DNA from: Barthelona sp. PCE
Taxonomy: Eukaryota
Direction of reading: 5' to 3'
Length of the DNA stretch: 64,000 nucleotides
Assembly (NCBI GenBank): GCA_040285745.1
Contig: JAUFOR010000002.1
Coordinates: 558,001-622,000, forward strand
The stretch's first letter is position 1. The number at the start of each line of letters is the position of its first letter. Position numbers and translations under genes: made by a program. The notes under the pieces are model-generated. The model did no database searches, was not told where the DNA came from, and saw nothing but the letters and a program-made list of their open reading frames with translations. Shown here one piece after another: positions 1 to 64,000 of this stretch.

Positions 1-3000
1 AGCATCTAGTTGACAAGAAGCAATACCGAATAGTGGTGTCTCATTCAAGAACTCATCAGTGACTTCATCAACAGAAATAAGAGGAGCATCACGAAGGAAA
101 ACGTTTGTGTAACGAGAAGAAACGCAAACAGCTTTGTAAAAACCAAAATCTATGGATCCATCTAATTGGAAACGGGAACATGGGTTCTCTCCAAGACAAA
201 GATGTAAGTTATGAGCATACAGGAATGCTCGTGCAGCAAAGAATGCTAAATCAGGCTTAATTGAAACAATAAGAAGAACACAGACGAAAAGAGGTAGATC
301 CTTCAACTCATCCGGCATTTCAGCCAGATCAATCCACTCAGCATTGAGCCAGTGGTCAATAAGGCCATCTTCGATTGCATCAAACACTGATGAATCAACC
401 ATATCCTTTAGATAAGTGGTCATCATATCAAAACCATCAGGAGCTTGAAGCAGACTGTGGAAAAGATCAAGCTCCTCTTCTGCGATAAGGTATAAGTTGG
501 TACAGAACTTGAGAGCAAATACCATGCGCTGATGAATTGAAGGAATACGTGTAAACATATTTTCTATAAATGTATTAAGCATTGAAACACGAATAGTTGA
601 ATCAAGAACCACCTTCCCTTCAGGCATCTCTTTGAAAGCATCCAAAATGATCTTATAAACGCCCTTAAGGTTTGGTATAAGATAGAACATCTTAGAACGG
701 TTCATAACATGAACTAAAGCCTTCAAACCACTACCTACAATATGTGCATAATACTTGTATCTGCGAATTACACGGTTCTTAACAGCCAACAGATACGCCT
801 TTGCAAATGCTTGACTATCACGACAATCACTCAGTTTCTTGCACTTCTCGGAGAAAACTGAAAGCGTCTTCTCAAGCATTTCCACGTTAAGCTGGCGTGA
901 TGCACTTACAACATACTGTAATGCCTCACGCTCCAGACGTGTCTCTTCACGAGCCGCATTAAAGATAACTGCAAACAGATTTTGAGCAATACCATACAAA
1001 TCAGGATCATGATGAGAACATAGATCAAAACAGACAACCTCAATCAGACTATCGAGCTCACAGTCCATGTTAATGAATGGGAAATCCGACAAACCACTGC
1101 TTAAAAACGATGTATGAGTCAATGGTTGAACGCATTGAATGATAACCTTGCAGTCTGCAACGAAATCAAAACGATTGTCACCAACCATCAGTCTATATGT
1201 CCTGTTCTTAATGACATGCAGTATATCCAGAATAATTGGTGCCAGTGATATGAGAAGATCAATATCTTTGATGACAGTAACCTTATGTTTGCAAACTGAG
1301 TTTATGAGTGCATCTCGCTGTTCGTTAACAGAAGAATACTTATACAATCCAATGTAATTCACATCAGTAAACAATGAATTAATTAGTTTCTCTGAGAAAT
1401 CAAAGGGATCAAAGATTGAAATCACACGTTCACCATAAAACGTTGAAATGAATGGAGAGAACTCCTCTAATTGAAGCAATAATGGCGACAAAAAAGGTGT
1501 CTCAGTAAAGAAACGGTTAAATAATTCAGCTACTCTTTTTGGTTCTGCTATTTGCTTCATATCCAACTTTTCTGTATTTCGAGTAGTTGAAACCATAGGT
1601 ACTGAAGTAATACTACGCTCAGTGGGTAAGGAACGTTGAGTTTTGCTACCACGACTAGTTGCAATATTGTCTCTTATACCCTCACCATCAAATAACTGAT
1701 CCATCTCCTCTGCAAGATCTATCGACTCCATAACTTCAACTGAATCATCGAATTGGATGCCACCAAGCTTTGTAGTATGCACATGTGTGTAAACTTCTGT
1801 GATAACTTCAAGAGAAAGGGGATACTGAACTTCATTGGGTTGAGGAACAAAAGCATCAAGAATATATTCGCGTATAACTTCGATGTTTAGCTGGAGTGCA
1901 TGCTTGAATGCCTTGTCGGAGTGAATAGCTGCTGAGTCAGATGCGACAATAAGCTGTTTTGACACCAAATCATTAAGACATGAGTGGAATAACTCAACAG
2001 AACTATCAATATCCAAACATGTTATAAGTGGCATCATGGCCACCAAAGCTGCGTGTAATAGATACTCAGGAGTCGTCTGCATACGTTTAGGCTTCTCCTC
2101 TTCAACTGGCTCAATGGAATTAACCATTTTGGCAGGGGTGGCGAATGATGTATCAACAATAAACGGTGTGCTGGGATCTGAGGCTGTTTCGGATAACGAC
2201 GTGGGATCACTCATGGTATTCGGACCAGCAGCAGACCACATACTTGATGGTGTATCCGGTACATCCTTTCGATCCACCTCCGGACAGATGTTACGGAATA
2301 GAGCTAGATAATCAAGCAACTTCTCCAGCAACATTAAGTTGGATCGCGTCTCAGACATCTCGTGATGCATCAAAGCAACATAATGGTAGTTCTTAACGAG
2401 TGCATCTGAGTGCATTTTGAGACGTTGAGTGTTTGATTCAATGGCTTGAGTGTTAGTCTGACTACGGGAATTCATCATATCACGATCACGAGTTGCCTCA
2501 TGATGAGTTAGTAATGCCTTCTCATGATTTTGAGTCATTTGCGCCCATTGAAGTGCACTACGAGCATATCTTCCCAATAATGGACAGAAAGAACGAGTTA
2601 ACATTGGCCCATCAAAATCTAGAGCATCCAACTTAGAAAGCAATTGTTCAATAAGAATGATTGGAAGTGTTGCTCCAAATGACACCAGAGACTCTACAAA
2701 ATGATCTATACGGATAATCATATTACGTAAATCCTTAAAGGCTGCGTTCTGAGAAAACTTACCTTCAACAATTGAAATGATGATACATGATAACTCATCA
2801 AGATGTTGGTTTTCACCTGAAAGCAAAAGCATTTCAAATGAATCTCGCTCGCCCAAATTATGCAATTCAGCGACAACAAGGTTGAACACTTCCTTTGCAT
2901 TGTTGAGCTCTTCTGAACATTCATCAAGTTGACTTTGTGCTCGATTATATTCTGCTTCAGAATTTTTGATATCTGTTTGGAACTTAACACTCTCTTCTTG

Positions 3001-6000
3001 TAAGGCATCCTTCCGTTGATGTTCTTCTCTCAACTTCTTGATATTCTTATCGAGCTCACGCTGTGTCTTCTCCAAAGTCATTGAGTAGTGTGTTAAATCC
3101 CGGTGACAAAGATTCATTGCTGTTTCTATCCAACGATAGTAACTCAACAATCCACGGGTCAGTTGGGTTTTCTCCTCAGTCATTGAGCGGTTGTAAAGTG
3201 CCAAATTAAAGAAGTTCTCAACAGTATGATTGAAGAACTGTTGCAATCCCAACGCATCAAATGTACCTGCCGTCACTGTACCAAAGGCCCATTGAGGCTG
3301 GAAGCTAAGACGGTTAGTATCAGGCATAATGATCTGTGCCTGAATGCGCTCGGTGAGTTTGATAAATGTATTAGCAAAGAAGTGACTGAAATCCTCACGC
3401 TGACGTGAGTTAACAATATGTGCCATCTTCTTAAAGTCCATTAATGATCTATGTAAGATTCTAGACAAACCTTGCTGGGCTACAGGAGAAAGAGACAGAC
3501 GATATTGTCGATCAAGAATGATGATAAGATCTGATACCACTTGCACAAAATCGCTTTTAGAATACCCTTGATGTTGGACAACAACTGTACGAGCGAAAAT
3601 GGGGATAAGTTGCTTCATTGAATTGGATTCAATGAAGAGTGAAGGTGGTATAACATTAACAAATGTTAGATTCTTTGAAACACGTTCCTTAATAAAGTCA
3701 ACGGTGTTCATACCCAGAGGGGTATATCTCTCAGCCCAAGATGTGAGCTCTTCCCTCTGATCATCAGTAAACAACAATGATTGACTGATTAAAGCATTGA
3801 ATTTCGTATCGGGATGGAAGGAATCAAGTAACGCAGCCGTAAGTCGGTTGGAAAACAACGGCTCTTGTCCACATCTTAACCAGAAGAACTGATTCAAAAC
3901 AACAATAGTTGACTTACCGTTGATAAGAACATCCTTAACAATTTCAAACAATTGATTAGTATCACCTAACTCAAGTTTGATGAGATGAAGGCGTTTCTTG
4001 TTGATATTAACAAACATACTGATCACAAATGATAAGAAATTCATTGCATCAAGCGAAATTGGTTTGATGAGAGTTAAGTGAAGATTGGGAGTATTTAATA
4101 CAATGCTCATAGATAATAAGAAAAGCATTTCACTTGGTGCTAAAGAGATTAATTTTTGAGGAGAATACTCATGTAATGCTCTGAACAAACGGAAACGAAG
4201 AAGATCATCGCGGGCTACCAAAACAAAATCACCACAATAAATATCATCATTAATCATCTTCTGATGTGACTGTGACTTGGCATCAAGTTCCATTGCTGTC
4301 TTGATATTAATAACACATAGAGTATCGTAAGAAGGGAGATGTTGAATAATATCACCGGAGTAGAAATGTGTGATTGCCTGTTCAATAAGGTTATTGGCAA
4401 ACATCAGCTCTCGACTAGACTGAAGGCGAGAAAGCCAAATAACCCTCAATAAGAATATGAAGAATGAAGCTAATGATGGGCCGAACATTGCTGGATTAGG
4501 TTTATGATGAACCATAACCGAAGCAAACAACCAAATGTGCTTCTCTGAGAAAGCATATGTTGGTGAAGCAACACTTTGTTTCAAGCCAGTCTTGAACTTA
4601 ACAAGTAAGAACTTAAACACTTCAAACGTTGTTCTAATGATTGAAACATGAGCAGAATCAGTTACACCCCACTTATTAACCAAGAATTGAACAGCTCTGT
4701 CAATTAACATAGCATGGGTAACATGAGGAAAGACTGTTGTGAAGAAACCGTCCAAATGTGAAACGAAACTGTGTAAATCATCACTGATTGGTTTTGAAAT
4801 TGGCATATCAAAATGTCCAATGGCACAGAAACTGGTACGCTCAAACCTAATATTCAAATTATCTTTGGGAAGATTCAAAACGTTGGAATTGGAAACGTTT
4901 TGAATGAGTAAGAGTACATCACTGGTTGCAAACTGAATGTTGTCAAAAATAATCCAGTAATGTTGTTTCTGTGATGCAGGGGCAATAAGATTACGCGACC
5001 AGTGAGGAATAAAGGTGGATAATGCTTGTTGAAGATCATATGCAGTTGTTGAAGGATAAATATCAAATCTGAACCTTAAAACCTCAACGTCTGCCTTTGC
5101 AAAGACTTCATCAATGAGTTTCAATGAATGAATGCGACTATCATAATTCGCAAAGAATAATCGATACGTTTTACCATCTTTGATAGGATGACGTTCTATA
5201 GCATCAGGTTCTGAGAAAAATATCTCAAAAATGTGCTCATACAGCATCTTTTCGTTTGGATGAAGTCCGGGTTCACCAATCTTAATGTAACTTTTCTCAA
5301 GATTATTCATCTCTACACCTTCCAGAATAACCTGATCAGATATGTCACGAGCACTGTCCATCTCACGGGCAGATTTGCGATGAGAACTCTTACGTCCACT
5401 GAGCTTGAGAGAAACATGTCCCATAGAATGCCCAGATCGAGATGTCATCTCCTCATTGACCAACAACGATGCACTAAGTCCTGATACCAACATGTTATCA
5501 ACACCAGTGTTAGCAGCCTGACCTTCAACTGCTATTTCGTACTTTTTAATAAATGAACGAACAGAATTTGAAATAGAGCTCTTGTTCACGCCCATCCTAT
5601 GACCATAGACATACATTAACCAAACAACAGCTTGTAATTTGTTAGGATGATCACGCAACTTATCCAAAAGTGTCCAAATGTTGTGCAAACGAGAGGAAGG
5701 AGGGAGAATGAATGATGTAAAAGGATTATAAAGATGTGATGCCTTTTGAAACATAGAAACTAAACTATTGATACCAACTCCAATTGCATCTGACTTCCCG
5801 AATCGCAATGAGAGATCTGACATTTCAACATGGTTCAACGCTCCAATCATTACACCATCAGAGATTTTTGCACCTTGTGACTCTGTAAAAGTGTAGACTG
5901 GATCCATGAATATGACTTCCTGATTAGCAATGAAGGGATATGAAGGAATATCACGGTCTGGTTCAGGGATCAATCTTGTGTTGATTTTAATACCTGAAAA

Positions 6001-9000
6001 CTTAGTGTGAAGCTTAATGCTATCCGACAAGCGGTTAACGCTGTTGACCGCAACAGGGCTGTGATTGGTGAGAATTGAAACAAATTTGACATTGACTTCA
6101 CAGCGGAAATAAAAACAATTACTAACAGCATAATTAATTGAATCCTTAAATACTGTAAGGAATGTTGTTGGAGCATCACAACAATAAACCACAACCAAAA
6201 CATTTGGTAAATCAACTAAAGTATCAACAAAACCCATTTCACGGACCTCTTCATTGATTGCTGATGCAATTCTGAATGATTCGTTCTTGGCATGAAGGAC
6301 AACTTCACCGTCAGATCCTAATTCGTTACTATTGAGGATCTCATGTTTGATTACTAGCGGGTGTTCATCATTTTGATGATAGTCACTCAGGTAGCGAGAA
6401 TACAATTGAATCACTGAATTACGAACGTCTACAAGACTGGATGTGTATGTGTACAAAACAACCATATCATTAAAGTGCAACTTAGAAGAAAATTTAATCA
6501 TAAAGTTAAGTAGACGGAAATTTTCATACAAATCAGTATTCAGAACCATATTCGTCCAAAAATTGAATCCTGGTTGCATTTTATAATTCTCAATGTTCTG
6601 ATAATATGGCGCAAAGTTCTCAAGAACACTTAATATTGACTTAATGTCAAAGAGTGAATGACGGAAAACATTGTGAGCCAACTGTGTGAAGTTATTCAAT
6701 GAAGCAGCGTCTTCCAAAAATTGGAATAAAACATATGCAAAAACACGCTTAACATACACAAACTGCACATCAGGAGAGCTGGAAGCAACACCTGTGGTTA
6801 CACTACATACGTGTTTAAATAAAGTGATTGTTCCTGCCATAATACGTCGAAGATTGTTACTGTTAAAGAACACAAGGATACCGTAAGCACGCAATAACCA
6901 ATAAATCTGATCCAAAAGAAGTGATACTTGATGAATAAAGCCATAAGTAAAGGGAATCACTTCCAAATATGGATACAAATCAAGTAAAAGATATAACAAA
7001 GAAGAACCACTGTGATTAAAGTGTGTGTCTAAGTTAATTGCTACGTAATCATCCTCTGGTAATACAAAGTTCGGGGTGTCACAACAGAAAACTGTACGAC
7101 AGTCGCTACCGTGAAACAAACTACTTACAAGACCTTGAGCAATTACAGGTAACTTATGGAAGTGCTTAAAACATGCAATGGTACCAGTCTTATACGCAGA
7201 AGGGATAAAAGGTCTGAGACGATCCAAAAATTCATCTAACAATAACTCACCATTCAGATTAGTAAATTCTTGAGCTAATGAAACACAATCAAAGATGTAA
7301 AACGGAGACATGCAGTAAAACAGAAAAGCAATACGCAGCTCTGGTAATATATTAATCATATCACCGTGTAACAGCACAATTCGTTTCCAAGAAAACGTTT
7401 TCCACATCATACGCATGACCTTGAACAAATCAGGAGTGAGAACAGGAGCAATGAGATTGGCAGTAATTGTGTGAGGGTGTTTAAGCTCAACACCATCAAT
7501 CACAATCAGAGAATCGGCCCATTTATAGGAAATTTCATTGATAAAGAACTCACCAGGCTTAATTGCCTCTGCGTTATTGCGAACAGGAGTAATAAGCTTG
7601 TGCTCTGTTGTGAGACTCATATCAACGCTGGATTCAGGAATTACAAAATCTCTTGTCATTGTGCTGGAGAAATCTAATGGACGACATGGAAGATCAGACT
7701 GATACTTACGGTCAAAATCTGAAGGATATCTCATGTCGACAGCAGAAAACTCACCAAGATAGGGAGTGATAATGCGTCGATAATGAGCATAAATACTACC
7801 ATCATCAATAACGTATATTGATGATAATTTAAGCTTGATTTTGTCATATAAAAACTTAATCTTCGCTCTGTACACCTTAGGCTCATCATTTGTTGTTATG
7901 TGCTTGAGATAATGTTGCAAATGGAAACGACACATGTAAATAGGATGGATTATACCATCAAAACTCTCAAGTTTCTCCCAAAAGTCTTCAACAGTCATCA
8001 CTAACATATCTGGATTGATCTTAATAAATTCTTGCCATTCATTTCGCACCCAACGTACAAATGCACTCATGAAACCACCAAAGAATCGTTCAACTGTATC
8101 CATTGGGAATATAGCTTGGGGAGCATCAAATGGAACAAGAATATTAGCCTGATCGATAAGATGAGTAATGTAATCTCCTTCAACCTCAAAACCGTTCGAA
8201 TTCGGACCTAACTGACAGTAAGTATGCTGAATAGCAAAATTCTCGGCAGAGACTCGTGAAAACAGATCTGGATGCACACGAAGTTTTTGAACAAGGATCG
8301 TAGACGTAGCCATCGACATGCTGCTTACATAACCAAGATAGACAGCACGTGAAACCCACTCTGGTTGGAGGTGAGGAACAATCTTTTTAACAAGAGAAAC
8401 ACTGTCGTCGTACAACTGACGTGCTTCTTCAATGATGTTCTGCTCAGCAGAATCCAGTATACAACGGAACTTTTGACACTTTGATTGGAAGTTCAAAAAA
8501 CGCACATGAACATCTGCAATATCTCTGTAAAGCTTATTATTTTCAAGGTTATACTTTGAATACTCGTATGAACAGAAGAATAACGTCTCCCAAATGGCGC
8601 TAGTGTTAAAAAGAATAACAAGCCAACGTCTAATTTGCTGCAACGAGATGGACCATGAACGCATACGACCTGCCAAACGAGAACTGGATAGAGAGAGTGC
8701 TTGGGCAATTGATTCAAGCGAAGAATTCAGTTTTTCAAATATTGGAAGTCTTCGACATACAACCTCACCTTCACATCCTTTCAAAAGCTCTGGGAAATGG
8801 AGCGCTTGTGCCCATGGTGAAGACTTAAATTCAAAATCTGACATAAAACTCAGATCAGAGAAGTAAGGAAGGTTGAACAAAAGCATGTGTTCACGTGTGG
8901 GATCATTGATAAGTAAATGTGGAACACGGTCGGCAAAAGCATCTCTAAACAGACACTTATCACGACAATCAAGTGCAACTGAAGATAAACTTATTTGTTT

Positions 9001-12000
9001 CAACAACCAATCACTCTCAAGTGAAGAGAGAATAACACCAGCTGTCTCCTCATCCTTTGCTTCCTGGATAATTTCCTTCAACCTGATGAATCCGCTTTCA
9101 TTATCAAAGAATGTCAACAGTAAAGTAATCACTGAGAATGACATTTGATTAGAGAAGTGAGATCCTGCAGAATTAGAGAGAAGTTGCCAATAATAATCAC
9201 TAAAACTACGCTTTTTCAAATTGATAAAAGCATTAAGCAATCTGAGTAACTCTTGAAGGTTATTTTTAAAGTAACCAGCTACATTTTGAACATTTTCACT
9301 CATCTCTTCCAGAGAATCAATGCAATCTTCAATGAACTCAATGTGATCCTTCAGATTCACCTCTTCAAATGAGATACTCTCAAACTCTTCACTTTCTGAG
9401 ATCATGGCCTCAAATAGATTCCACATGCGATCGTATTCACTTAACATATCTTGTGCAGCTTCTATGGTTACAAGTTGAAGTGATTTTGTGCTGATGAGTC
9501 GAAGATACCCTGAAATATCAACTCTTCTACTAGCCAATGACTCAGCTTCTGACAGCAGTTCGGTGAGAAGAGTACGTGCAGCGGTTACACCCTCATTGAA
9601 CTCTGTAGAGAAAATTGGACACTTAACGTTACCAAATGGTTCAAGTTCAAACACTCTATTTGAGAACTGCTCCAGCTGACTGTTCAACTCTATAACATTT
9701 GCTTCGACCTTTTGCACGAATGATCCCATAGATCTGGACACCTGCGTCTGAACAACCTGAATAGTGTTGTCTAATTGCGTTGTAAGACGCTCAGCACCAA
9801 CAATACACTTGTTTGCATGATTAACAGTGTCTTGTTCACCTTGCAATGAAGAGTGGTGCTCGAACAATTGTACAAGTTCAGTACAAAACTCAATGGTCGA
9901 CTTTAACCGCTTCTCGTTGAGTTTAAGGTCTCTGATACGACGTGTGAGATCCTGCAACGTTATTATACGTTGATCACCATCCGTCTTTTCCAGAGAACGT
10001 CGCATATCGTTGATCTGTTCGAGCTGATATGTTAAGTAATCATAAATATGCGTCGTGATGATACTAAGAGTGTTGGAAAGAAGTTTACGTAACTTGAACA
10101 CTACACCACTGAACTTTGCCTGCATACTGTCTTTGAATGCAGAAAGATCGTAAGTAACAAACATTATCACATCGTTATTTGTGATGTTGTACACAAGATC
10201 TGAAACTTGTTCAAGTAGGTCAAGCTTCGGTTCAAGCTGCTTAAAAAACTTCTCGCGATTGGCGACAACCTTAAACTTACTGAGTCTTCCACTTGTACCG
10301 TCAGACTTGCGCTCAATATCATCTACAACGCTCGCAATAGTATCCAACTTCAAAGTTTGTTGTAGCTTAACGCTATCAAACAAAACTCCGAATGTACTAT
10401 ACTTGTCAGAGATATATTCAAGCATCAGCTGTGCAAAATTGGCAATATTCGAATAAACACGACGTATTAGGGCATTGAGGGATGTGTTATTCCTCACTAA
10501 CATTATAACTGAATTACTTTCAATCTTATCCTCTTCTTCTTCAACAAGTTCAAATGCCTCATCATTAATACGTGGTGTTTTGAGTTCATATTCATCAAAA
10601 TGACCATCTTCACCAACAAGAGAACGGGGAACTTTGAGAACTGCAAACGAACGCAGCATGAGAGTTAACATTGTATCAACAAACACATCCAACTTAATCT
10701 TTGGATTGTCAACAACAGGTTTGCGATGCAAAATCGAATAGACTGTGAATGAATCCTCGCTCATTTCATATTCTACCTCACTGAATCCTACTGAGGCCAT
10801 AGATTTGCTGGACATCAAAACATCAGGCTTTGACTTCTCCAGGAGAGACAAAACACTTCCACCAACATGACTGTCGGGAATTGTGAAAATAAACTCACCT
10901 CGAAGGAATAGCTTACCAATTAGGAAAGTACCAGACTCTTGAGTATCAAGGAACGAGTGAAATTGTTGAAGAGTTATTGTCAAAAGTTCTGTGACCTTTC
11001 TAACCAAAAGGTCTTGTAGATATTGAAGGAAATCAAGCCAATAGTTATCTCCCTGTGTTAAGAACAAGATCTTACGAGCATTTTCAACCAACTCGCAAAG
11101 TTTAGCATTAAAATCCTCAAACATATCTTGCAAATGATGGAAATGACTTACATTGGCGTTTAAAATTTCATTCAAATCAGAACTTAGTGCTAATATGAAT
11201 ATACGATTGTCCTCACTGAGATTATCAAAAAATTTCTCAATGAAACGAATTACAGTGAAAAGAGCTTCAGCCTTCTTAGCCAAAACATCGATTGTAGTGT
11301 CAAACAAAGTACAGAAAGTGAGTGAACCTTGTGCCTGCCAAACAATATCGTTACATGCACTAAAAACACTTGTATTGGTCTTGTTAAGCTCATCCATCAG
11401 CAAATTTTCTAGTACTCTAACAAGATCAGGCAATATACAATTATATTTCCTGCATGATAAAGAAAGAACTGAACTGACATCATGAAACTGTTTAAAGAAC
11501 TTGGCAGTACGACTAACAATTGACGGAACACGTGAGTAAATCTGTGCACCAATGTTAACACCGTTCTTATGAACAACCAAATTTTCCAATAGTGATACAA
11601 ACTTGTGAGTGTGATAGAAAATAGTGCTTGCATTATCATCACAATTGATACATATCATACTGTGATTCTTACACAATAAAGGAGAAGAATAAAATTTCCT
11701 AATGACGTTCTCATTTGAGGTAAGATAATCTGTAAAGAGCTGAATGAATGTCAGCTGAAGATCAGCTGCCAATTCCATCTGTGAACGCAGACATCTGTTG
11801 ATTTCATCATAAAATACCAAAGGTACAACTGCACTGTCAATGATCAAATCGGCAGATTTCAAACTCTCTGCTGAATTCACATAAGGGGCTAGATCAACAG
11901 CCAGTTTCTTTAACTCATCACGAGTAGGAATCTCGTCCGTTGTGTGGGTTGATAGATATGACATATCAAGTTGTGAGAATGTATCTTCATAATCCATAAG

Positions 12001-13902
12001 AAGAGCATAAAGACGAATAAGTGCAGAAAAAACCTTAGGATCAGTCTGAACTAACGAGTCAAAAACCTCATCATTAATAGGTTGATCGTTCGAAACCGTA
12101 CAGTTCGGAATAATGGGCTCATACAAAACAAATGAAGAAGACTCTACGTTGAGCAATTTGACAGCTTTCTTCAACATTAAATGTGAAGAATGAAGAGAAA
12201 CAGCAAATATACTCAATGCCTTAACTGTCTGGAAGAAAATAAGACGAGAAACCAAATAATATGGTTTGGAATGAAGGAGTACTTGTACTGTACTGATGAA
12301 CTGGAAATTTAATCGACGCGAATTGTATTCACTCAGACGATCATGAATATGAGAGCAAATAGCAAGGTCAATATGAATGATCTCCTTTCGAAGTTCACTG
12401 AATGGAACGTTAAAAGTATCCAGATTAAAACGAACAAAGGTTGAAGTTGGACTGATTCCGTATAATTTCTTCAAAAAAGTAACTAAATTAAGTTTGTAAC
12501 TGTCCAGTAACTGATTATACTGAATGTTCCACTCGTTGTAGTTCAAGTTCATGCCTCGGAATGTTAAGTTACGGAAGGTACTGAACTCCAAGAATCGTAG
12601 TAGCAACTCTTCAGTTGCTGCACAACGATCAACAAAGTTGTTAAGGTTGCCAAACGCATCAACCGAGCGCAATCGAACCCAGGCGCTATCTTGTGATGTG
12701 CGTTCATTCCTGTAACGGAAAAAAGATTGTCTTAGAAAATTGCAAATACCAATAGTTGTACGAATACGGGCAACTATATTGATTGCATTGTCAGTGAACG
12801 TGTTGAATACTTCGTTATTCAAACGAAGAGAATCACGTGAGTGAACATCAACAGTGAAAAAAGACTGCGGGTCGAGGTTGCAGTCTTCCTCAAGATACTG
12901 AAGCGATTTGTCGATGGTCTGTGAAGCGACACTGCTCAAAATAATATTTAAATTGTGTTCGGAAGCGTAAACTGGTAAGTTAAGGAATACTAAATCGATT
13001 GACTCAAAAATACAACTTAAAACCTTACATAAACCTTGAAATTCATCGGCTGTGGATGTCTCTAAATCTTTAAAGAAAGGACTGACAAATTTTAGGAAGT
13101 GATTTACCTTATCTACCTCAGAAAAAAAATCTGAAAGTTCTCTGACCTTATGTTTGATTTTCTGAATAAGATTAGCATCAATACTCTCTACATGCTTCAT
13201 AAACTTAACAAATATTGGATCTCTAATACCACGTAAAACTTCCTTAACTAAAAGATATCTAGTATTCCAAAATCTACATTCGTCAGTGGGAATATCTATG
13301 GTATGTTCCTTCTTTAATAAATTGGAAACAAAATCGAAAAGTCTATTGGCATAATTTAAAAGTTGTTCTGCTTCTAATGACGTAACTTCTGCTGCAAGAA
13401 CAATATCTATAATATCATCGCTTAAATTTTGTTGAAAACTAGATTGTTTCTGACCGGTTTTTTGGCGGTCTTGATTGTTTTCAAAGAATTTTGAAAAATT
13501 TTCATTGCTTACATTGTCTAATTTTAATAAACCTTGATTAAAAATGAATTTGATCAAAGAATTAGTCGAATTCTCAATAACAGGAACGAAAAAGACAATC
13601 AGTTCTTCAATACTGCTTAAGATTTCAGGGACATTTAACTCAAAATCAATGGGTTTAATAATGATTTCAAAATCAGTCTCATCTACATTTGGAAAATCAA
13701 ATTGTAGTTCAATAGTATCTGAAGTGGGGTGTATACAAAATATTGATCTTGCTGATTCATCAAACAAGAATGAAGCAAAACTGGCCAAAAGACCACCTTC
13801 AAGTTCGGGATCAACATTGATCTCACTTAAACGGGGAGATACTGTTAATACGCGGGATAAAACTCTTTGAAATGCTTGTTTTTGTACCTTTAATGATAAC
13901 AT
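1..13902 (-). CDS. Divergent dynein heavy chain-like protein (3'-partial, >=4634 aa in window), AAA nucleotide motifs degenerate
   Basis: ATG at 13902-13900, preceded by an in-frame TAA at 13914-13912. The ORF track lists no stop-terminated ORF in this minus frame and every segment I translated by hand is open, so the frame appears open to position 1. Dynein-like blocks in order: DHC_N1 (PTDECRFWNTRY; EVDKVNHFLKFVSPFFKDLE; AFGNLNNFVDRC), DHC_N2 (EYDRMWNLF...LKKRSFSDYYWQLLSNSAG), AAA1 (APVLTPDLFKVM...LHGDMINILPE...YIFDC...ACFKHFHKL), AAA4 (PNLHLTLIKPISLD...RVSKNLTFV), stalk coiled coils (~3200-2300), AAA5-like (ISIFDPFDF). Confidence 0.85.
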   Translation of the reverse strand, partial: MLSLKVQKQAFQRVLSRVLTVSPRLSEINVDPELEGGLLASFASFLFDESARSIFCIHPTSDTIELQFDFPNVDETDFEIIIKPIDFELNVPEILSSIEELIVFFVPVIENSTNSLIKFIFNQGLLKLDNVSNENFSKFFENNQDRQKTGQKQSSFQQNLSDDIIDIVLAAEVTSLEAEQLLNYANRLFDFVSNLLKKEHTIDIPTDECRFWNTRYLLVKEVLRGIRDPIFVKFMKHVESIDANLIQKIKHKVRELSDFFSEVDKVNHFLKFVSPFFKDLETSTADEFQGLCKVLSCIFESIDLVFLNLPVYASEHNLNIILSSVASQTIDKSLQYLEEDCNLDPQSFFTVDVHSRDSLRLNNEVFNTFTDNAINIVARIRTTIGICNFLRQSFFRYRNERTSQDSAWVRLRSVDAFGNLNNFVDRCAATEELLLRFLEFSTFRNLTFRGMNLNYNEWNIQYNQLLDSYKLNLVTFLKKLYGISPTSTFVRFNLDTFNVPFSELRKEIIHIDLAICSHIHDRLSEYNSRRLNFQFISTVQVLLHSKPYYLVSRLIFFQTVKALSIFAVSLHSSHLMLKKAVKLLNVESSSFVLYEPIIPNCTVSNDQPINDEVFDSLVQTDPKVFSALIRLYALLMDYEDTFSQLDMSYLSTHTTDEIPTRDELKKLAVDLAPYVNSAESLKSADLIIDSAVVPLVFYDEINRCLRSQMELAADLQLTFIQLFTDYLTSNENVIRKFYSSPLLCKNHSMICINCDDNASTIFYHTHKFVSLLENLVVHKNGVNIGAQIYSRVPSIVSRTAKFFKQFHDVSSVLSLSCRKYNCILPDLVRVLENLLMDELNKTNTSVFSACNDIVWQAQGSLTFCTLFDTTIDVLAKKAEALFTVIRFIEKFFDNLSEDNRIFILALSSDLNEILNANVSHFHHLQDMFEDFNAKLCELVENARKILFLTQGDNYWLDFLQYLQDLLVRKVTELLTITLQQFHSFLDTQESGTFLIGKLFLRGEFIFTIPDSHVGGSVLSLLEKSKPDVLMSSKSMASVGFSEVEYEMSEDSFTVYSILHRKPVVDNPKIKLDVFVDTMLTLMLRSFAVLKVPRSLVGEDGHFDEYELKTPRINDEAFELVEEEEDKIESNSVIMLVRNNTSLNALIRRVYSNIANFAQLMLEYISDKYSTFGVLFDSVKLQQTLKLDTIASVVDDIERKSDGTSGRLSKFKVVANREKFFKQLEPKLDLLEQVSDLVYNITNNDVIMFVTYDLSAFKDSMQAKFSGVVFKLRKLLSNTLSIITTHIYDYLTYQLEQINDMRRSLEKTDGDQRIITLQDLTRRIRDLKLNEKRLKSTIEFCTELVQLFEHHSSLQGEQDTVNHANKCIVGAERLTTQLDNTIQVVQTQVSRSMGSFVQKVEANVIELNSQLEQFSNRVFELEPFGNVKCPIFSTEFNEGVTAARTLLTELLSEAESLASRRVDISGYLRLISTKSLQLVTIEAAQDMLSEYDRMWNLFEAMISESEEFESISFEEVNLKDHIEFIEDCIDSLEEMSENVQNVAGYFKNNLQELLRLLNAFINLKKRSFSDYYWQLLSNSAGSHFSNQMSFSVITLLLTFFDNESGFIRLKEIIQEAKDEETAGVILSSLESDWLLKQISLSSVALDCRDKCLFRDAFADRVPHLLINDPTREHMLLFNLPYFSDLSFMSDFEFKSSPWAQALHFPELLKGCEGEVVCRRLPIFEKLNSSLESIAQALSLSSSRLAGRMRSWSISLQQIRRWLVILFNTSAIWETLFFCSYEYSKYNLENNKLYRDIADVHVRFLNFQSKCQKFRCILDSAEQNIIEEARQLYDDSVSLVKKIVPHLQPEWVSRAVYLGYVSSMSMATSTILVQKLRVHPDLFSRVSAENFAIQHTYCQLGPNSNGFEVEGDYITHLIDQANILVPFDAPQAIFPMDTVERFFGGFMSAFVRWVRNEWQEFIKINPDMLVMTVEDFWEKLESFDGIIHPIYMCRFHLQHYLKHITTNDEPKVYRAKIKFLYDKIKLKLSSIYVIDDGSIYAHYRRIITPYLGEFSAVDMRYPSDFDRKYQSDLPCRPLDFSSTMTRDFVIPESSVDMSLTTEHKLITPVRNNAEAIKPGEFFINEISYKWADSLIVIDGVELKHPHTITANLIAPVLTPDLFKVMRMMWKTFSWKRIVLLHGDMINILPELRIAFLFYCMSPFYIFDCVSLAQEFTNLNGELLLDEFLDRLRPFIPSAYKTGTIACFKHFHKLPVIAQGLVSSLFHGSDCRTVFCCDTPNFVLPEDDYVAINLDTHFNHSGSSLLYLLLDLYPYLEVIPFTYGFIHQVSLLLDQIYWLLRAYGILVFFNSNNLRRIMAGTITLFKHVCSVTTGVASSSPDVQFVYVKRVFAYVLFQFLEDAASLNNFTQLAHNVFRHSLFDIKSILSVLENFAPYYQNIENYKMQPGFNFWTNMVLNTDLYENFRLLNFMIKFSSKLHFNDMVVLYTYTSSLVDVRNSVIQLYSRYLSDYHQNDEHPLVIKHEILNSNELGSDGEVVLHAKNESFRIASAINEEVREMGFVDTLVDLPNVLVVVYCCDAPTTFLTVFKDSINYAVSNCFYFRCEVNVKFVSILTNHSPVAVNSVNRLSDSIKLHTKFSGIKINTRLIPEPDRDIPSYPFIANQEVIFMDPVYTFTESQGAKISDGVMIGALNHVEMSDLSLRFGKSDAIGVGINSLVSMFQKASHLYNPFTSFILPPSSRLHNIWTLLDKLRDHPNKLQAVVWLMYVYGHRMGVNKSSISNSVRSFIKKYEIAVEGQAANTGVDNMLVSGLSASLLVNEEMTSRSGHSMGHVSLKLSGRKSSHRKSAREMDSARDISDQVILEGVEMNNLEKSYIKIGEPGLHPNEKMLYEHIFEIFFSEPDAIERHPIKDGKTYRLFFANYDSRIHSLKLIDEVFAKADVEVLRFRFDIYPSTTAYDLQQALSTFIPHWSRNLIAPASQKQHYWIIFDNIQFATSDVLLLIQNVSNSNVLNLPKDNLNIRFERTSFCAIGHFDMPISKPISDDLHSFVSHLDGFFTTVFPHVTHAMLIDRAVQFLVNKWGVTDSAHVSIIRTTFEVFKFLLVKFKTGLKQSVASPTYAFSEKHIWLFASVMVHHKPNPAMFGPSLASFFIFLLRVIWLSRLQSSRELMFANNLIEQAITHFYSGDIIQHLPSYDTLCVINIKTAMELDAKSQSHQKMINDDIYCGDFVLVARDDLLRFRLFRALHEYSPQKLISLAPSEMLFLLSMSIVLNTPNLHLTLIKPISLDAMNFLSFVISMFVNINKKRLHLIKLELGDTNQLFEIVKDVLINGKSTIVVLNQFFWLRCGQEPLFSNRLTAALLDSFHPDTKFNALISQSLLFTDDQREELTSWAERYTPLGMNTVDFIKERVSKNLTFVNVIPPSLFIESNSMKQLIPIFARTVVVQHQGYSKSDFVQVVSDLIIILDRQYRLSLSPVAQQGLSRILHRSLMDFKKMAHIVNSRQREDFSHFFANTFIKLTERIQAQIIMPDTNRLSFQPQWAFGTVTAGTFDALGLQQFFNHTVENFFNLALYNRSMTEEKTQLTRGLLSYYRWIETAMNLCHRDLTHYSMTLEKTQRELDKNIKKLREEHQRKDALQEESVKFQTDIKNSEAEYNRAQSQLDECSEELNNAKEVFNLVVAELHNLGERDSFEMLLLSGENQHLDELSCIIISIVEGKFSQNAAFKDLRNMIIRIDHFVESLVSFGATLPIILIEQLLSKLDALDFDGPMLTRSFCPLLGRYARSALQWAQMTQNHEKALLTHHEATRDRDMMNSRSQTNTQAIESNTQRLKMHSDALVKNYHYVALMHHEMSETRSNLMLLEKLLDYLALFRNICPEVDRKDVPDTPSSMWSAAGPNTMSDPTSLSETASDPSTPFIVDTSFATPAKMVNSIEPVEEEKPKRMQTTPEYLLHAALVAMMPLITCLDIDSSVELFHSCLNDLVSKQLIVASDSAAIHSDKAFKHALQLNIEVIREYILDAFVPQPNEVQYPLSLEVITEVYTHVHTTKLGGIQFDDSVEVMESIDLAEEMDQLFDGEGIRDNIATSRGSKTQRSLPTERSITSVPMVSTTRNTEKLDMKQIAEPKRVAELFNRFFTETPFLSPLLLQLEEFSPFISTFYGERVISIFDPFDFSEKLINSLFTDVNYIGLYKYSSVNEQRDALINSVCKHKVTVIKDIDLLISLAPIILDILHVIKNRTYRLMVGDNRFDFVADCKVIIQCVQPLTHTSFLSSGLSDFPFINMDCELDSLIEVVCFDLCSHHDPDLYGIAQNLFAVIFNAAREETRLEREALQYVVSASRQLNVEMLEKTLSVFSEKCKKLSDCRDSQAFAKAYLLAVKNRVIRRYKYYAHIVGSGLKALVHVMNRSKMFYLIPNLKGVYKIILDAFKEMPEGKVVLDSTIRVSMLNTFIENMFTRIPSIHQRMVFALKFCTNLYLIAEEELDLFHSLLQAPDGFDMMTTYLKDMVDSSVFDAIEDGLIDHWLNAEWIDLAEMPDELKDLPLFVCVLLIVSIKPDLAFFAARAFLYAHNLHLCLGENPCSRFQLDGSIDFGFYKAVCVSSRYTNVFLRDAPLISVDEVTDEFLNETPLFGIASCQLDA

Positions 13903-14291
13903 AGGGTAAAATTACAGTGTTTTTAAAAAGGTCTTATGCTTATTTGTAAATATTGAGGTATATAACCGGAAAATAATATCTCTAGTGCAGTTTTACGTGC
14001 AAAAATTCAATACAAATATGTTCACTCGTTGAAAACGATGAAAATAGAAAAACACATTTTTACCTGAGATTTCCTACTGAATTCAATAGATTTACTGTAT
14101 GTATGCTTCATGTTTGACCGCAGTTACAAATAACAAAAACTCTTTAAAGGACAAATTGGAAAAATTGAGAAAAAATGTTCCTATATCATTAAACTGCACC
14201 AATACATGATAAACGACTTGAAAACTTGTTTATATCAAGACAAAATGTTTTAAAAAACAAAAATTAAACTTAGGGATTGATGAAATAAACA

Positions 14292-17187: not shown

Positions 17188-17384
17188 ACCTTGTGAATTT
17201 AGATTTATTTGTTCTTTTAGAGGTTTCTATTAATTATTTTCCTCATATTAATTTATGTGCTGTAATTTCTGGGTAAAAACCATGCAAAAAGCGTGTTGTG
17301 GATCAATCATTATTTCAGATGACTTGTGTAAATAGAAAACACTGTTTTTTTTTATTTTTCCCTTTTCACTGGTTCTATCCTTTT

Positions 17385-28714: not shown

Positions 28715-31700
28715 ATGCTCTCGAATCTATTATTGGAGAGAAACCCTGATGCAAGAGACAATTTCACCGAGCTATTTAGGAATAAGTTTGCAACAGTGTT
28801 AGGACGAAGTGCTGCCGATAAAATGTTTGAAGACGACCTTTTCATAAATAATCTTCGTAATTTTGCCTTAGATGGTGCTAGAATTGGATTATTTATTTCC
28901 ATTCTACGTACAGGAGGATTTCGTAATACTACAATCACCTTCTACTTCTACAACGACATAAAAGAAGCATTGGATAACTTTGAATCTAACTTTGAAATGG
29001 TATTTCTGTTAAGATTAAGTACTGGTTTTGCGATTAGCACTTTTAACCCACATATGTTCATTCATGAACTTGTACATTTCCAATCAGGTGTTGTTACTTC
29101 GCTTTTTAAGGCTTTTTCACCACCTAAACAAGGAAAGGGAGGAAATATTTTGGAGAAAGCTCTTTCAGACTACATATCTTCATGTTATGCACTTATGCCG
29201 AGCGTCAGTGAGCTTCCCTTGCTTGATGTTCTTGAACACAATAGAGGGAACAATGCCCTCTTTATTTCTATAGGAAAACTTTGGATACTTTTACTACGTG
29301 ATACCATTTCCACTAAACGTAACATAACATATTTATCAGATGAAGTTAATTGGTGGGAAAACCGTGTAGAGTCACTAACAAAGTTGCTTAAGAATCTGAA
29401 AACTACCGATGTTAACCACATCTTAAAGAATGGTGAAAGTATCGAACCGCGATTAGTTGCAGAAATCCGTGCTCTTATTAAGAGCGTCTCTGATAGTCTT
29501 GTCATTGCTAAGTCAAATTCCAAGTTCCTTAACGTTGGTTTATTGTATTTCCAAGACCTTGAAAGCAATACAGATTTTTCAAAGACCGTGTACTTTCTTC
29601 GGGCAGTGTTTGAGGTGATAGACCAAATCATCACAAAGAGCCCTTACTACGGTACAGAAGAACATCTTGACTTGTTGTTAAGTTCAGTCGTTTCCAATGT
29701 TATATCCCATGTACGAAAGTATATCGACTCTGAGAATAACTTGTGCATTGATAGATTTATTAATGAGAAGAACGAATTCATTGCTGATTCATTGGACTTC
29801 TTCAAGGATCATGCATATGATTATTCTTGCAAATGCAGGATGTCGTTGGTTGTTTGTCGAGAAATGAAAAAATTATTTATGGATTACCGAAGTCAGCAGG
29901 ATGATGAGGAACATGAAGGTAACATCTGGAGTGCTGTTCAAACAATATCTTGTTTCAAAGAACTGGACTTCTGTATTGATCGATGCATGGACATGTACGA
30001 AGTTTTCTTGATCACAGCAGATGTGAACCTTCTACATTGTATTAGCTTTCCCCTTATTGTAACAAAAGAACCTGTTGAACAACAAAGAAAGACAGCGTTT
30101 GACGCGGATGAAGCTAGTGTAATTTTACATCGTGTTCCAGATACATATGTTGAATTCTTGTTGAGCTTTTTTGTAGAACTAAAAGAAATAATTCTTGATA
30201 ATTATGATGAAGAAAAATACAAAAGCAAATACAAAAATTTATTTGAAATTGAACGTTCACAATGGTCAAAATGTTTTTTTACATTTTCTCAGAAAATACA
30301 AATGTTAGAGATCAACCTAACTCCTTGTATTGATTACTTTTTGGGATCTGTTATGTATTTGGGTACAAAATTGGAACTTTTAAGTTTCTGCAGACCCTTT
30401 GTCCAGAACCCTCTATTGCAGTGTATGTCACGTGCAGTTCGTAAACACCTACTATTAACGTTACATGATTCGTTTTCGTATTCGTGTTTCTTATATAATC
30501 AAATTAAATTAATCATTCCTGGTGTGAGCCAGTCCGCTATTAAGCTTCCCAGTATATCTATACTCTTTGATCACCGCAACACTATTGCTAATGTGAAGAG
30601 CTGGGATTTGTTAGCATCTGATTCGAAACGCAAAACTTTTTCAACAGTTTTATCCAAGAGGAACATTGTCAGCTCTTCAGGATCATTTATGGGTGAGTTG
30701 GGTGAAGATGATGAGTCATATCAACACTATTGTGATATTTTTGACTTTCTCTATTCAATGTATAATCTTGTTGAAAAATTCATCTATGAATTAGAAAATA
30801 TAGGTGTTTCCCGTTTGGTAGAAGTAAGTGCTGTCACAGAAGATGACACCGTACTTGAAGACCCACCGGAGTTGGAAGAGTTATTACACCTTGATCCGTG
30901 CTCTTCAAAGATTGTTATCTCTGTCAGTTTATTACAGCGGTTGTTTAATCAGCAAATAGATTTCTTAGTATCTATTCGAACAGTTATCATTGAAAAAGTC
31001 ATGGCCTTTGTAGAGTCTGTTGTAGAAGATTTCGAATTCAAGTGGACGGACATTAGTATGTTCCTTTCTTCTTCTTTACTTCTTGAAGGCAGAGTACCTG
31101 GACAATACCTAATCAATGAGAACCTCTCACTGCAACATGTTATGAAGGTTGTTGGTGAATTACTACGTAGACTCGAGTGTTCATACATTAATTTTGATGA
31201 TAAGAATGTCCTTGATGTTGTTTATCGTGGTCTATCCAAGCGCATCCTTCGTATTCCAAAAGCGTTTTTGGTTTTTAAGGTTGTTTACTCATCGTTACAT
31301 TTCAGTCTAACTGCTTATGCATCAGTTATTAGTAAGCTAACGCTCACAATGAAGAAGCTCCTTCATCAAGATTTGGCAAAGGCTGAGAACGAGTTCCAAA
31401 CTGCCGTTACATCGCTGACCTGGAAGACGCATGCTTCATTTTCACATTGTAAGGTGCTTAGCACTCTGGTCAAATTTTTAAGGAAGAAGTCTGGTGCTTT
31501 GTTAAACGTCTTTGTTACCATCGAGGACTTCTTTAAATCACTCCAGAAACAACGTATCCAGATATTACCTGATGAATCAAGTGTATATCTGTTCCTTAAG
31601 AAGAACAACAGCATACACAACAAAATCGAAGAACAAATTGAGGTATTCAACGAAACACTGAGAAAGGAACTATTAGTTGCATATCACTCTTTGGCAATAG

Positions 31701-61422: not shown

Positions 61423-61468
61423 ATGATTTGAAGTGTTGATGTGGTGTGTCTGATACATGGATATATTC

Positions 61469-61771: not shown

Positions 61772-61826
61772 TTGAAAAAGAGGTGATTGTTTGAATTACA
61801 CTTTTTTACCGCATAATATTATCCCA

Positions 61827-63881: not shown

Positions 63882-64000
63882 AGAATAGAAAATGTTTGAA
63901 ATTGATTATAAATTGAAATTTTCTTTGAGCAAATCTGAAGCGTTACAGCTTATTGTGTGTTATCTAAGTCCGTTTTTGCGTACTCGAAGGTTAAAATAAG

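What the first reader, a model, noticed from the sequence alone, without database searches (positions are those of the whole stretch)
7153..7460. AAA1 of the first dynein-like gene has lost both Walker A and Walker B
Minus-strand translation gives APVLTPDLFKVMRMMWKTFSWKRIVLLHGDMINILPELRIAFLFYCMSPFYIFDC, colinear with canonical RLVITPLTDRC...GPAGTGKTE...VVFNC. Downstream, KTGTIACFKHFHKL aligns to QSGAWGCFDEFNRL, so the catalytic DE has become KH. The AAA4 P-loop position reads HLTLIKPISLDA. The gene is absent from the ORF track because it has no stop in the window.
Basis: partly seen in the sequence, partly recalled or inferred. Interest (0 to 1): 0.72.

Follow-up and report, generated by a model that had tools for sequence, protein, structure and literature searches.

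The report
Dynein-like giant genes without ATP sites
A protist genome carries two intact, giant genes that keep the overall layout of the dynein motor protein but have lost every recognisable ATP-binding motif, so they probably act as non-moving scaffolds rather than motors.

Summary
The minus-strand frame 1..13902 is one stop-free ORF of 4634 codons that runs off the window. All three quoted strings are present. Neither this protein nor its full-length model has a G....GK[ST] motif.

It is a real dynein heavy chain derivative. Pfam finds the tail (DHC_N1) and the linker (DHC_N2). Profile-profile comparison with 16 canonical dyneins fetched here gives a colinear series of matches: linker, AAA1 (weak), AAA3, AAA4, stalk/MTBD, AAA5 and the C-terminal domain.

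- Walker A GPAGTGKT aligns to GDMINILP (Lys to Leu, Thr to Pro).
- Walker B DE aligns to KH.
- The sensor-1 Asn aligns to Thr.
- The AAA3 and AAA4 P-loops are also degenerate.

The only relative found is a 5103-aa Barthelona protein (31% identity), which shares these changes. The dead AAA1 core is among the top 1% most conserved stretches between the two. A second, distant paralogue (28715..44779) is equally P-loop-free.

My reading is a selected, non-motile "pseudo-dynein". It resembles the animal DNAHX and DNHD1 cases, but it is in a protist and is more extreme. The AAA1 similarity alone is statistically weak, and there are no expression or localisation data.

The parts
1..13902 (-). Gene 1: a dynein-heavy-chain-like ORF of 4634 codons, open at its 3' end. 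The full-length gene model P0002 adds 554 aa beyond the window. The likely true start is the ATG at 13902.
   Evidence: no stop; full-length model and Barthelona relative; C-terminal remainder.
12274..13320 (-). Tail, Pfam DHC_N1 (aa 195-543).
   Evidence: E 1.5e-17, 63.9 bits against a cut-off of 28.3.
8992..9459 (-). Linker, Pfam DHC_N2 (aa 1482-1637, profile positions 3-161 of 403).
   Evidence: E 1.6e-10, 40.9 bits against a cut-off of 31.9; hhalign P 3.7e-07 to the canonical linker.
6994..7449 (-). AAA1-equivalent core (aa 2152-2303), comprising the pre-Walker-A helix, beta1, the former P-loop, beta2, the Walker B strand and the sensor-1 strand.
   Evidence: register; 7 of 300 shuffles reach the real score; 55% and 53% identity to Barthelona against 31% overall; AAA+ fold in a model that leans on canonical sequences.
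7342..7365 (-). Walker A position of AAA1. It reads GDMINILP (aa 2180-2187) where canonical dyneins read GPAGTGKT: Lys to Leu2186 and Thr to Pro2187.
7150..7173 (-). Walker B position of AAA1. It reads CFKHFHKL (aa 2244-2251) where canonical dyneins read CFDEFNRI: Asp to Lys2246 and Glu to His2247.
   Evidence: (best HMMER stretch).
7066..7086 (-). Sensor-1 strand of AAA1. It reads CCDTPNF where canonical dyneins read (V/I)TMNPGY, so Asn becomes Thr. The following AGR is deleted.
4939..5190 (-). AAA3-equivalent nucleotide site. HPIKDGKT (nt 5167-5190) sits at the P-loop position. It is a vestigial GKT that is not conserved in the relatives. WIIFDN (nt 4939-4956) sits at Walker B.
   Evidence: hhalign E 0.0014, 342 columns; (dynein AAA_7 clusters, score 0.92-0.94).
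4048..4080 (-). AAA4 P-loop position. It reads HLTLIKPISLD opposite canonical LVGVGGSGkqSL.
   Evidence: hhalign E 0.003, 244 columns.
2086..3195 (-). Stalk coiled coil with an MTBD-like globular insert (about aa 3570-3939).
   Evidence: hhalign probability 82%, E 1.1e-05, 332 columns against the canonical stalk/MTBD.
28715..44779 (+). Gene 2: a second dynein-like ORF of 5354 aa and a distant paralogue of gene 1. Its AAA1 Walker A position reads GAGCAFSD (nt 35681-35704) and its Walker B position reads ILTNYETL (nt 35855-35878).
   Evidence: ORF; DHC_N1 E 1e-25, Dynein_C E 0.0015; DHC_N2 E 1.2e-04, below the cut-off; BLASTP to gene 1: E 1e-28, 20-21% identity over more than 1000 aa; no Walker A.

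Best explanation
Gene 1 encodes an intact dynein heavy chain paralogue that is under selection and has become a pseudo-ATPase. Gene 2 is the same in a more diverged form. The protein keeps the dynein parts in the canonical order: tail, linker, a ring of AAA-like modules, an antiparallel stalk with a microtubule-binding-domain-like insert, and a C-terminal domain.

The main catalytic site, AAA1, has no phosphate-binding loop. The Walker A Lys is now Leu and the Thr is now Pro. The Walker B Asp-Glu pair is now Lys-His. The sensor-1 Asn is now Thr. The P-loops of AAA3 and AAA4 are also gone. The protein therefore cannot run the ATP-driven linker swing.

Inferred, not shown: it most likely works as a non-motile dynein. 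It would be a static or regulatory microtubule-associated strut that uses the retained tail to dock, and perhaps to pair with a second heavy chain. It would use the stalk to contact a microtubule, probably in the flagellar apparatus. The strong conservation of the rebuilt AAA1 core suggests that this part now has a structural role, such as holding the ring and linker in one fixed conformation.
For: Shown:
- The ORF is intact: 4634 codons, 0 stops.
- Pfam finds DHC_N1 and DHC_N2 above their cut-offs.
- In the hhalign scan of 40 overlapping 300-column chunks against a profile of 16 canonical dyneins, 14 of 40 chunks had P < 0.05. All 14 fall in the canonical domain order: tail coiled coil, linker, AAA3, AAA4, stalk, AAA5, AAA5 extension.
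- In the first run of that scan, the 14 of 34 scored chunks with score >= 25 gave Spearman 0.99 (p 6.5e-12). Reversed-sequence controls gave 4 of 40 at >= 25, with a maximum of 28.6.
- Focused hhalign gives AAA3 E 0.0014, AAA4 E 0.003 and stalk/MTBD E 1.1e-05.
- The AAA3-4 region hits dynein AAA_7/AAA_8 clusters at 0.92-0.94 in the protein atlas.
- hhalign and MAFFT find the same AAA1 register.
- There is no Walker A in P0002, P0003 or P0004, against 2-4 in each of 8 of 8 listed canonical controls.
- A 5103-aa Barthelona protein is 31% identical along its length and shares the same substitutions.
- The two 60-aa windows over the dead AAA1 core are 55% and 53% identical, within the top 0.9% of all windows.

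From the literature:
- Non-motile dynein heavy chains exist. For DNAHX and DNHD1 I read the outline with abstract, section 6 (identification and phylogeny), section 10 (the AAA1 site) and section 12 (Discussion) of 10.1101/2025.01.18.633724.
Against: - The AAA1 similarity is not significant on its own. hhalign gives E 0.16 and P 0.1 in the scan.
- With a canonical AAA1 HMM, 82 of 500 shuffles matched or beat the real P0002 segment, 23 of 500 for P0003 and 13 of 500 for P0004.
- AAA2 was not detected (E 0.44).
- Pfam sees none of the dynein AAA families. HMMER against PDB sequences finds no dynein.
- The unbiased AlphaFold run failed with mean pLDDT 32.8. The confident model (pLDDT 80-92 over the core) used an alignment containing 16 canonical dyneins, so it is not an independent test.
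- Gene 1 keeps a GKT at the AAA3 P-loop position and an FDN at Walker B, so residual nucleotide binding there is not excluded.
- There is no evidence on expression, localisation, partners or microtubule binding.
- Only two species carry gene 1 in the databases searched, and no relative of gene 2 was found.
Confidence: 0.75

Rival explanations
1. It is a decaying 'ghost' dynein gene. On this view it is a duplicate that has lost function and is on its way to becoming a pseudogene, and the loss of motifs is simply drift.
For: All nucleotide motifs are lost. Divergence is extreme, so Pfam and HMMER fail on the ring. DNHD1 has been described this way in the literature (passages of PMC8754002).
Against: Gene 1 has 13.9 kb and gene 2 has 16 kb without a single stop. 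A full-length relative is retained in Barthelona at only 31% identity. The 'dead' AAA1 core is in the top 0.9% of conserved windows. Kollmar 2016 argues that such aberrant dyneins are bona fide genes (passages of PMC5100056).
Confidence: 0.03
2. It is still a nucleotide-dependent machine that uses a non-canonical or surviving site. One candidate is the AAA3 remnant in gene 1 (HPIKDGKT plus IIFDN). Another is an unrecognised site in the poorly aligned AAA2.
For: hhalign puts GKT of gene 1 opposite the AAA3 GtGKT and IIFDN opposite viFvDD. A Gly-rich FGKSDA / FGGGEV / LGGSSA stretch lies near the expected AAA2 P-loop. DNAHX keeps ATP bound at a degenerate AAA1 (section 10 of the preprint).
Against: The GKT is not conserved. 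Barthelona has NGKP, and gene 2 has a deletion there. No strict or relaxed Walker A exists in any of the three proteins. The second Walker B acid is missing. The AAA2 alignment is at noise level (E 0.44).
Confidence: 0.1
3. Only the tail and linker derive from dynein. On this view the region after the linker is unrelated sequence, so 'AAA1' as such does not exist and the quoted similarity is chance.
For: Local AAA1 scores are within the range of shuffles under HMMER. The protein atlas gave no usable hit for aa 1900-2900. A profile of this region found only itself and Barthelona among 1.84 billion representatives, plus one 300-aa hit at E 8.7e-04 that looks unrelated.
Against: Matches resume downstream in the right order: AAA3, AAA4, stalk, AAA5 and Dynein_C. 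The spacing leaves room for AAA1 and AAA2. The best whole-profile hit of both chunks covering the region falls inside canonical AAA1. hhalign and MAFFT agree on the register, with Pro58, Gly81 and Cys107 invariant across 19 sequences. For each of the three divergent proteins, the top HMMER stretch lands on the P-loop block or the Walker B block.
Confidence: 0.06

Closest known systems
[quoted passage not shown] I read the outline with abstract, section 6 (identification and phylogeny), section 10 (the AAA1 site) and section 12 (Discussion).
   Same: Both are dynein heavy chains of unusual length: 5272 aa for DNAHX, against about 5188 and 5354 aa here. Both keep the overall dynein architecture with insertions. 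Both have poorly conserved AAA1 catalytic motifs and are interpreted as non-motile.
   Different: DNAHX keeps a P-loop, with only Thr changed to Val, and keeps a Walker B. It still holds ATP. Here the whole P-loop and both Walker B acids are replaced, and AAA3 and AAA4 are degenerate too. The authors report DNAHX as absent from protists and derived from the outer-arm alpha chain.
DNHD1, also known as dynein class 11 or the 'ghost' or orphan dynein (passages of PMC8754002, passages of PMC5100056, and the DNAHX preprint discussion).
   Same: It is an aberrant dynein heavy chain whose AAA1 lacks the catalytic Walker B residues, according to the preprint. It was once thought to be a relic. Kollmar argues such aberrant dyneins are bona fide genes, and the preprint's discussion cites genetic studies for a role of DNHD1 in ciliogenesis.
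   Different: Relatedness to DNHD1 was not tested here. From memory, DNHD1 is still recognised by the Pfam dynein AAA families, whereas these proteins are not. The organism here is a metamonad-like protist.
Canonical dynein heavy chains, represented by the 16 metagenomic ORFs fetched here. One example is L070, 4535 aa, with the complete Pfam dynein domain set.
   Same: The domain order is the same: DHC_N1, DHC_N2, the AAA modules, stalk/MTBD and the C-terminal domain. The tail profile scores best against two long-tailed ORFs, L007 (E 7e-15) and L070 (E 6e-10).
   Different: Identity to the canonical sequences in AAA1 is 12-18%. These proteins have no Walker A or Walker B, while the canonical ORFs have 2-4 strict P-loops. 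They are about 600-800 aa longer.

Membership tests
Dynein heavy chain (DHC) superfamily | N-terminal tail domain (Pfam DHC_N1) | tested here: met
   gene 1 scores E 1.5e-17, 63.9 bits (cut-off 28.3); gene 2 scores E 1e-25, 90.9 bits.
Dynein heavy chain (DHC) superfamily | Linker (Pfam DHC_N2) immediately before the ring | tested here: met
   gene 1 scores E 1.6e-10, 40.9 bits (cut-off 31.9) when scanned as a 400-aa piece; hhalign P 3.7e-07. Gene 2 reaches only 21.5 bits, below the cut-off.
Dynein heavy chain (DHC) superfamily | Six AAA+ modules in one chain, in canonical order | tested here: inconclusive
   hhalign finds AAA3 (E 0.0014), AAA4 (E 0.003) and AAA5 with its extension (P 6e-04 and 0.0018) in order. 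AAA1 is weak (E 0.16; 7 of 300 shuffles). AAA2 is not detected (E 0.44). No Pfam AAA_6, AAA_7, AAA_8 or AAA_9 hit appears. The atlas supports AAA3-4.
Dynein heavy chain (DHC) superfamily | Coiled-coil stalk with a microtubule-binding domain between AAA4 and AAA5 | tested here: met
   hhalign probability 82%, E 1.1e-05, 332 aligned columns, including the globular insert. Coiled-coil composition may inflate part of the score.
Dynein heavy chain (DHC) superfamily | Catalytic AAA1 with Walker A GxxxxGK[ST] and Walker B hhhhDE | tested here: not met
   no Walker A anywhere in the proteins. GDMINILP sits at Walker A and CFKHFHKL at Walker B. This fails the test for being an active motor dynein. It does not fail descent from dyneins.
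AAA+ fold at the AAA1-equivalent region | Alpha/beta core with beta1 to beta5 plus a helical lid | tested here: inconclusive
DNAHX subfamily (non-motile dyneins of animals) | Sequence relatedness to DNAHX and descent from the outer-arm alpha heavy chain | not tested
The authors report DNAHX as absent from protists, so I treat this as analogy, not membership.
DNAHX subfamily (non-motile dyneins of animals) | Degenerate AAA1 motifs and extended length | tested here: met
   The lengths are about 5188 aa and 5354 aa. Walker A, Walker B and sensor-1 are all replaced.
DNHD1 / dynein class 11 | Orthology to DNHD1 | not tested
   No DNHD1 sequence was available. The exhaustive profile search of the AAA1-2 region returned no animal protein.

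The most novel reading that the evidence does not exclude
These two genes could define a protist lineage of fully nucleotide-free dyneins that arose independently of animal DNAHX and DNHD1. In this reading the ring has lost all four P-loops yet is conserved. The two paralogues would pair through their DHC_N1 tails into a two-headed, permanently static 'dynein'. That complex would serve as a structural cross-link or a conformational template in the flagellar apparatus of barthelonid-like metamonads. This would show that the dynein ring has a selectable function that does not depend on ATP at all.
Probability: 0.35. Interest if true: 0.78.

Novelty: new variant of a known kind. Interest (0 to 1): 0.62.

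Why it matters
Dynein is defined as an ATP-driven motor, and AAA1 is the site that drives it. Non-motile heavy chains were first characterised structurally in animals in 2025 (DNAHX). The authors of that work stated that DNAHX is absent from protists.

A conserved pair of dynein-derived giants in a deep-branching anaerobic flagellate, with no P-loop left in any module, would show three things:
- Motor-to-scaffold conversion of dynein has happened more than once.
- The conversion can go much further than in DNAHX.
- The rebuilt AAA1 core is itself under selection.

It also offers a natural ATP-free dynein ring for structural study. There is a practical point too. Pfam and HMMER recognise only the tail and linker, so such genes are annotated as hypothetical and would be missed in dynein inventories.

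Tried and rejected
- phmmer of the whole protein against PDB sequences found no dynein. The only hit was an ArgJ chain at E 0.71.
- A 3-sequence profile against PDB sequences also found no dynein, only chance hits at E >= 0.1.
- The exhaustive profile search of aa 1900-2900 against 1.84 billion representatives returned 3 proteins at E <= 0.001: the protein itself, Barthelona P0003, and a 300-aa protein at E 8.7e-04 that looks unrelated.
- The search for homologous proteins on the tail-linker region returned only the query. On gene 2 residues 2250-3450 it returned nothing among 4161 candidates.
- The protein atlas gave no usable hit for aa 1900-2900.
- AlphaFold with the 3-sequence alignment gave mean pLDDT 32.8, so I did not take it to a fold search.
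- A canonical AAA1 HMM against real and shuffled segments showed no significant excess.
- Sequencing runs: none was listed, and no RNA holder was listed.
- I did not use complex prediction, because heterodimerisation is only an inference here.
- I did not place these proteins in a named dynein class, because the canonical ORFs I fetched carry no class labels.
- I considered an alternative genetic code or a frameshift hiding a P-loop, and rejected both. The frame is continuous, and the Barthelona protein shows the same residues.
- Literature searches for this kind of protein in protists found only the DNAHX preprint and one unrelated paper. The metamonad genome paper PMC11316075 has 0 occurrences of 'dynein' in its main text. 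I did not look at its supplements, or at those of Kollmar 2016, which list the orphan diplomonad dyneins.
Full report
**What is in the sequence.** The minus strand from 13902 down to base 1 is one open frame of 4634 codons. It begins with ATG and is still open where the window ends, and a script counted no stop in it.
- The AAA1 string is aa 2152-2206 (nt 7285-7449).
- KTGTIACFKHFHKL is aa 2238-2251 (nt 7150-7191), which begins 3 nt outside the stated start.
- HLTLIKPISLDA is aa 3275-3286 (nt 4045-4080).

The window is eukaryotic and gene-dense, with long uninterrupted ORFs. These include a TTL-family tubulin ligase, kinases, a B-box protein and a PP1-like phosphatase. A second giant ORF of 5354 aa lies at 28715..44779 on the plus strand.

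**Relatives.** A word-indexed search of 5.8 billion proteins with aa 1900-2900 found two proteins. One is the window's own full-length gene model (P0002, 5235 aa). The other is a 5103-aa hypothetical protein of Barthelona sp. PCE (P0003, 31% identity, 100% coverage). An exhaustive HMMER profile search of 1.84 billion representatives with this region returned the same two, plus one 300-aa protein at E 8.7e-04 that looks unrelated. Gene 2 is a distant paralogue of gene 1 (BLASTP E 1e-28, 20-21% identity over more than 1000 residues). No relative of gene 2 was found, not even its own product.

**Is it a dynein?** Several lines of evidence bear on this.
- Pfam sees the tail (DHC_N1) in both genes: E 1.5e-17 in gene 1 and E 1e-25 in gene 2.
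- Pfam sees the linker (DHC_N2, E 1.6e-10, above its cut-off) in gene 1 when the protein is scanned in pieces.
- In gene 2, DHC_N2 (E 1.2e-04) and Dynein_C (E 0.0017) are below their cut-offs.
- No dynein AAA family is reported. HMMER against all PDB sequences finds no dynein.

To go further I needed canonical dyneins. A scan of metagenome contigs with a pattern for the AAA1 P-loop gave 119 loci. Sixteen of them carry dynein ORFs of 3300-4535 aa. One of these, L070, has the complete Pfam dynein domain set.

I cut the alignment of the three divergent proteins into 40 overlapping 300-column chunks and aligned each with hhalign against the 16-sequence profile. Fourteen of the 40 chunks had P < 0.05, and all 14 fall in the canonical order:
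- tail coiled coil and linker (P down to 3.7e-07)
- AAA3 (0.007 and 0.014)
- AAA4 (0.025)
- stalk (6e-05, 1e-04 and 0.041)
- AAA5 (6e-04 and 0.024)
- AAA5 extension (0.0018 and 0.016)

In the first run of this scan, 6 of 40 chunks crashed. The 14 of 34 scored chunks with score >= 25 gave Spearman 0.99 (p 6.5e-12). Reversed sequences gave only 4 of 40 chunks at >= 25, with a maximum of 28.6.

Focused alignments gave E 0.0014 for AAA3, E 0.003 for AAA4 and E 1.1e-05 (probability 82%) for the stalk with its MTBD-like insert. The protein-language-model atlas put aa 2853-3603 next to dynein AAA_7/AAA_8 clusters (0.92-0.94, 180-189 of 256 shared features). The same atlas gave nothing usable for aa 1900-2900.

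The tail profile scores best against two long-tailed ORFs, L007 (E 7e-15) and L070 (E 6e-10). It scores only weakly against ORFs that I recognise from memory as cytoplasmic-dynein-like. The fetched ORFs carry no class labels, so I do not name a class.

**AAA1.** This is the weakest link statistically and the point of the finding.
The score is only E 0.16.
- In the whole-protein scan, the two chunks covering it both have their best hit inside canonical AAA1 (P 0.1 and 0.25).
- Seven of 300 column shuffles reach the real score.
- With a plain canonical AAA1 HMM, the real segments do not beat shuffles: 82, 23 and 13 of 500 shuffles reach the real score for P0002, P0003 and P0004. Even so, their best stretches land on the Walker B block or the P-loop block.
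- MAFFT, given the three divergent segments and 16 canonical ones, produced the same register without gaps across the P-loop. Pro58, Gly81 and Cys107 are invariant in all 19 sequences.

In that register the catalytic positions read as follows:

| Position | Canonical | Gene 1 | Barthelona | Gene 2 |
|---|---|---|---|---|
| Walker A | GPAGTGKT | GDMINILP (Lys to Leu2186, Thr to Pro2187; nt 7342-7365) | GEMAHMLP | GAGCAFSD |
| Walker B | CFDEFNRI | CFKHFHKL (Asp to Lys2246, Glu to His2247; nt 7150-7173) | CFNHFNVL | ILTNYETL |
| Sensor-1 | TMNPGY | CDTPNF, with the following AGR deleted | | |

An Arg in the lid region that I take to be sensor-2 (from memory) is retained.

Whatever the register, none of the three proteins has a strict or relaxed Walker A anywhere. 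The 8 of 8 canonical ORFs listed as controls have 2-4 each.

**Other nucleotide sites.**
- At AAA3, gene 1 has HPIKDGKT opposite the P-loop and IIFDN opposite Walker B. Barthelona has NDMDNGKP and LVFEN. Gene 2 has a deletion and FTVSH. The GKT in gene 1 therefore looks like a vestige.
Gene 2 keeps INGSGIDK.
- AAA2 could not be aligned (E 0.44).

**Structure.**
- AlphaFold on aa 1900-2900 with the 3-sequence alignment failed (mean pLDDT 32.8).
- With alignment A2, which contains 16 canonical dyneins, the AAA1 segment folds with pLDDT 80-92 over residues 60-190. It is an alpha/beta core whose strands fall on RIVLL, YIFDC, IACFK, RTVFCC and VAINL. The helix starts directly at Gly81, with no loop where the P-loop should be.
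- Because the alignment carries the canonical signal, this is a threading-like result and not an independent proof.

**Selection.** Both giant frames are intact, and the Barthelona protein is full length at 31% identity. Over 60-aa windows, the two windows covering the dead AAA1 core are 55% and 53% identical. Only 0.9% of all windows are as conserved. A decaying gene would not look like this.

**Interpretation.** The shown facts are dynein descent, intact frames, loss of all recognisable P-loops and of the AAA1 Walker B, and conservation of the remodelled core. From these I infer that the protein cannot perform the ATP-driven cycle and acts as a non-motile dynein. It would dock through its tail and contact a microtubule through its retained stalk/MTBD, probably in the flagellar apparatus. 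The two paralogues may pair, but nothing here tests that.

The closest published analogue is DNAHX, a non-motile heavy chain of 5272 aa found by cryo-EM in sea urchin sperm. It has a degenerate AAA1 that is still ATP-bound, and its authors report it as absent from protists. The same preprint notes that DNHD1 lacks the catalytic Walker B residues. I read its outline with abstract and its sections 6, 10 and 12. Kollmar 2016 describes aberrant and orphan dyneins, including diplomonad ones, as bona fide genes with conserved tails (passages). Its supplementary sequence sets were not examined and could contain relatives. The metamonad genome paper that includes Barthelona does not mention dynein in its main text. 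My searches for non-motile or degenerate dyneins found nothing else relevant.

**Verdict.** The thing is a new and more extreme protist variant of the recently recognised non-motile dyneins. The remaining doubts are:
- the residue-level register at AAA1, which rests on weak local statistics
- the undetected AAA2
- possible residual nucleotide binding at AAA3 of gene 1
- the complete lack of expression and localisation data (no sequencing run was listed)

Noticed in passing
window 13902-15035 (minus strand), and about aa 300 of gene 1: The public gene model P0002 seems chimeric. Its first ~90 residues look like the upstream thiamin pyrophosphokinase gene (ORF 14292-15035, Pfam TPK_catalytic). 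It also drops 14 residues as an intron, although the Barthelona protein keeps the homologous stretch. The true start is probably the ATG at 13902, which matches the Barthelona N-terminus.
   Followed up: partly
window 46466-50440: A 240-bp tandem repeat of 16.6 copies at 99% matches lies inside the 2191-aa coiled-coil ORF on the minus strand (44809-51384). It probably explains the local rise in GC to about 45% and the 1344-aa antisense ORF.
   Followed up: partly
window 35302-35395: An 18-bp repeat of 5.2 copies encodes a GGISEL peptide repeat in gene 2. It lies about 100 residues upstream of gene 2's AAA1-equivalent P-loop position.
   Followed up: no
window 17298-19466 (+): A tubulin-tyrosine-ligase-family gene (Pfam TTL, E 8.7e-80) lies between the two dynein-like genes, so a tubulin-modifying enzyme sits next to two microtubule-related giants.
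   Followed up: no
window 28715-44779 (+): The product of gene 2 was not found in either large protein database, not even as itself. It may be unannotated or split in the public gene set.
   Followed up: partly
window 60001-64000: GC skew jumps to +0.21 and AT skew to +0.15 in the last 4 kb, where the rest of the window stays near zero.
   Followed up: no
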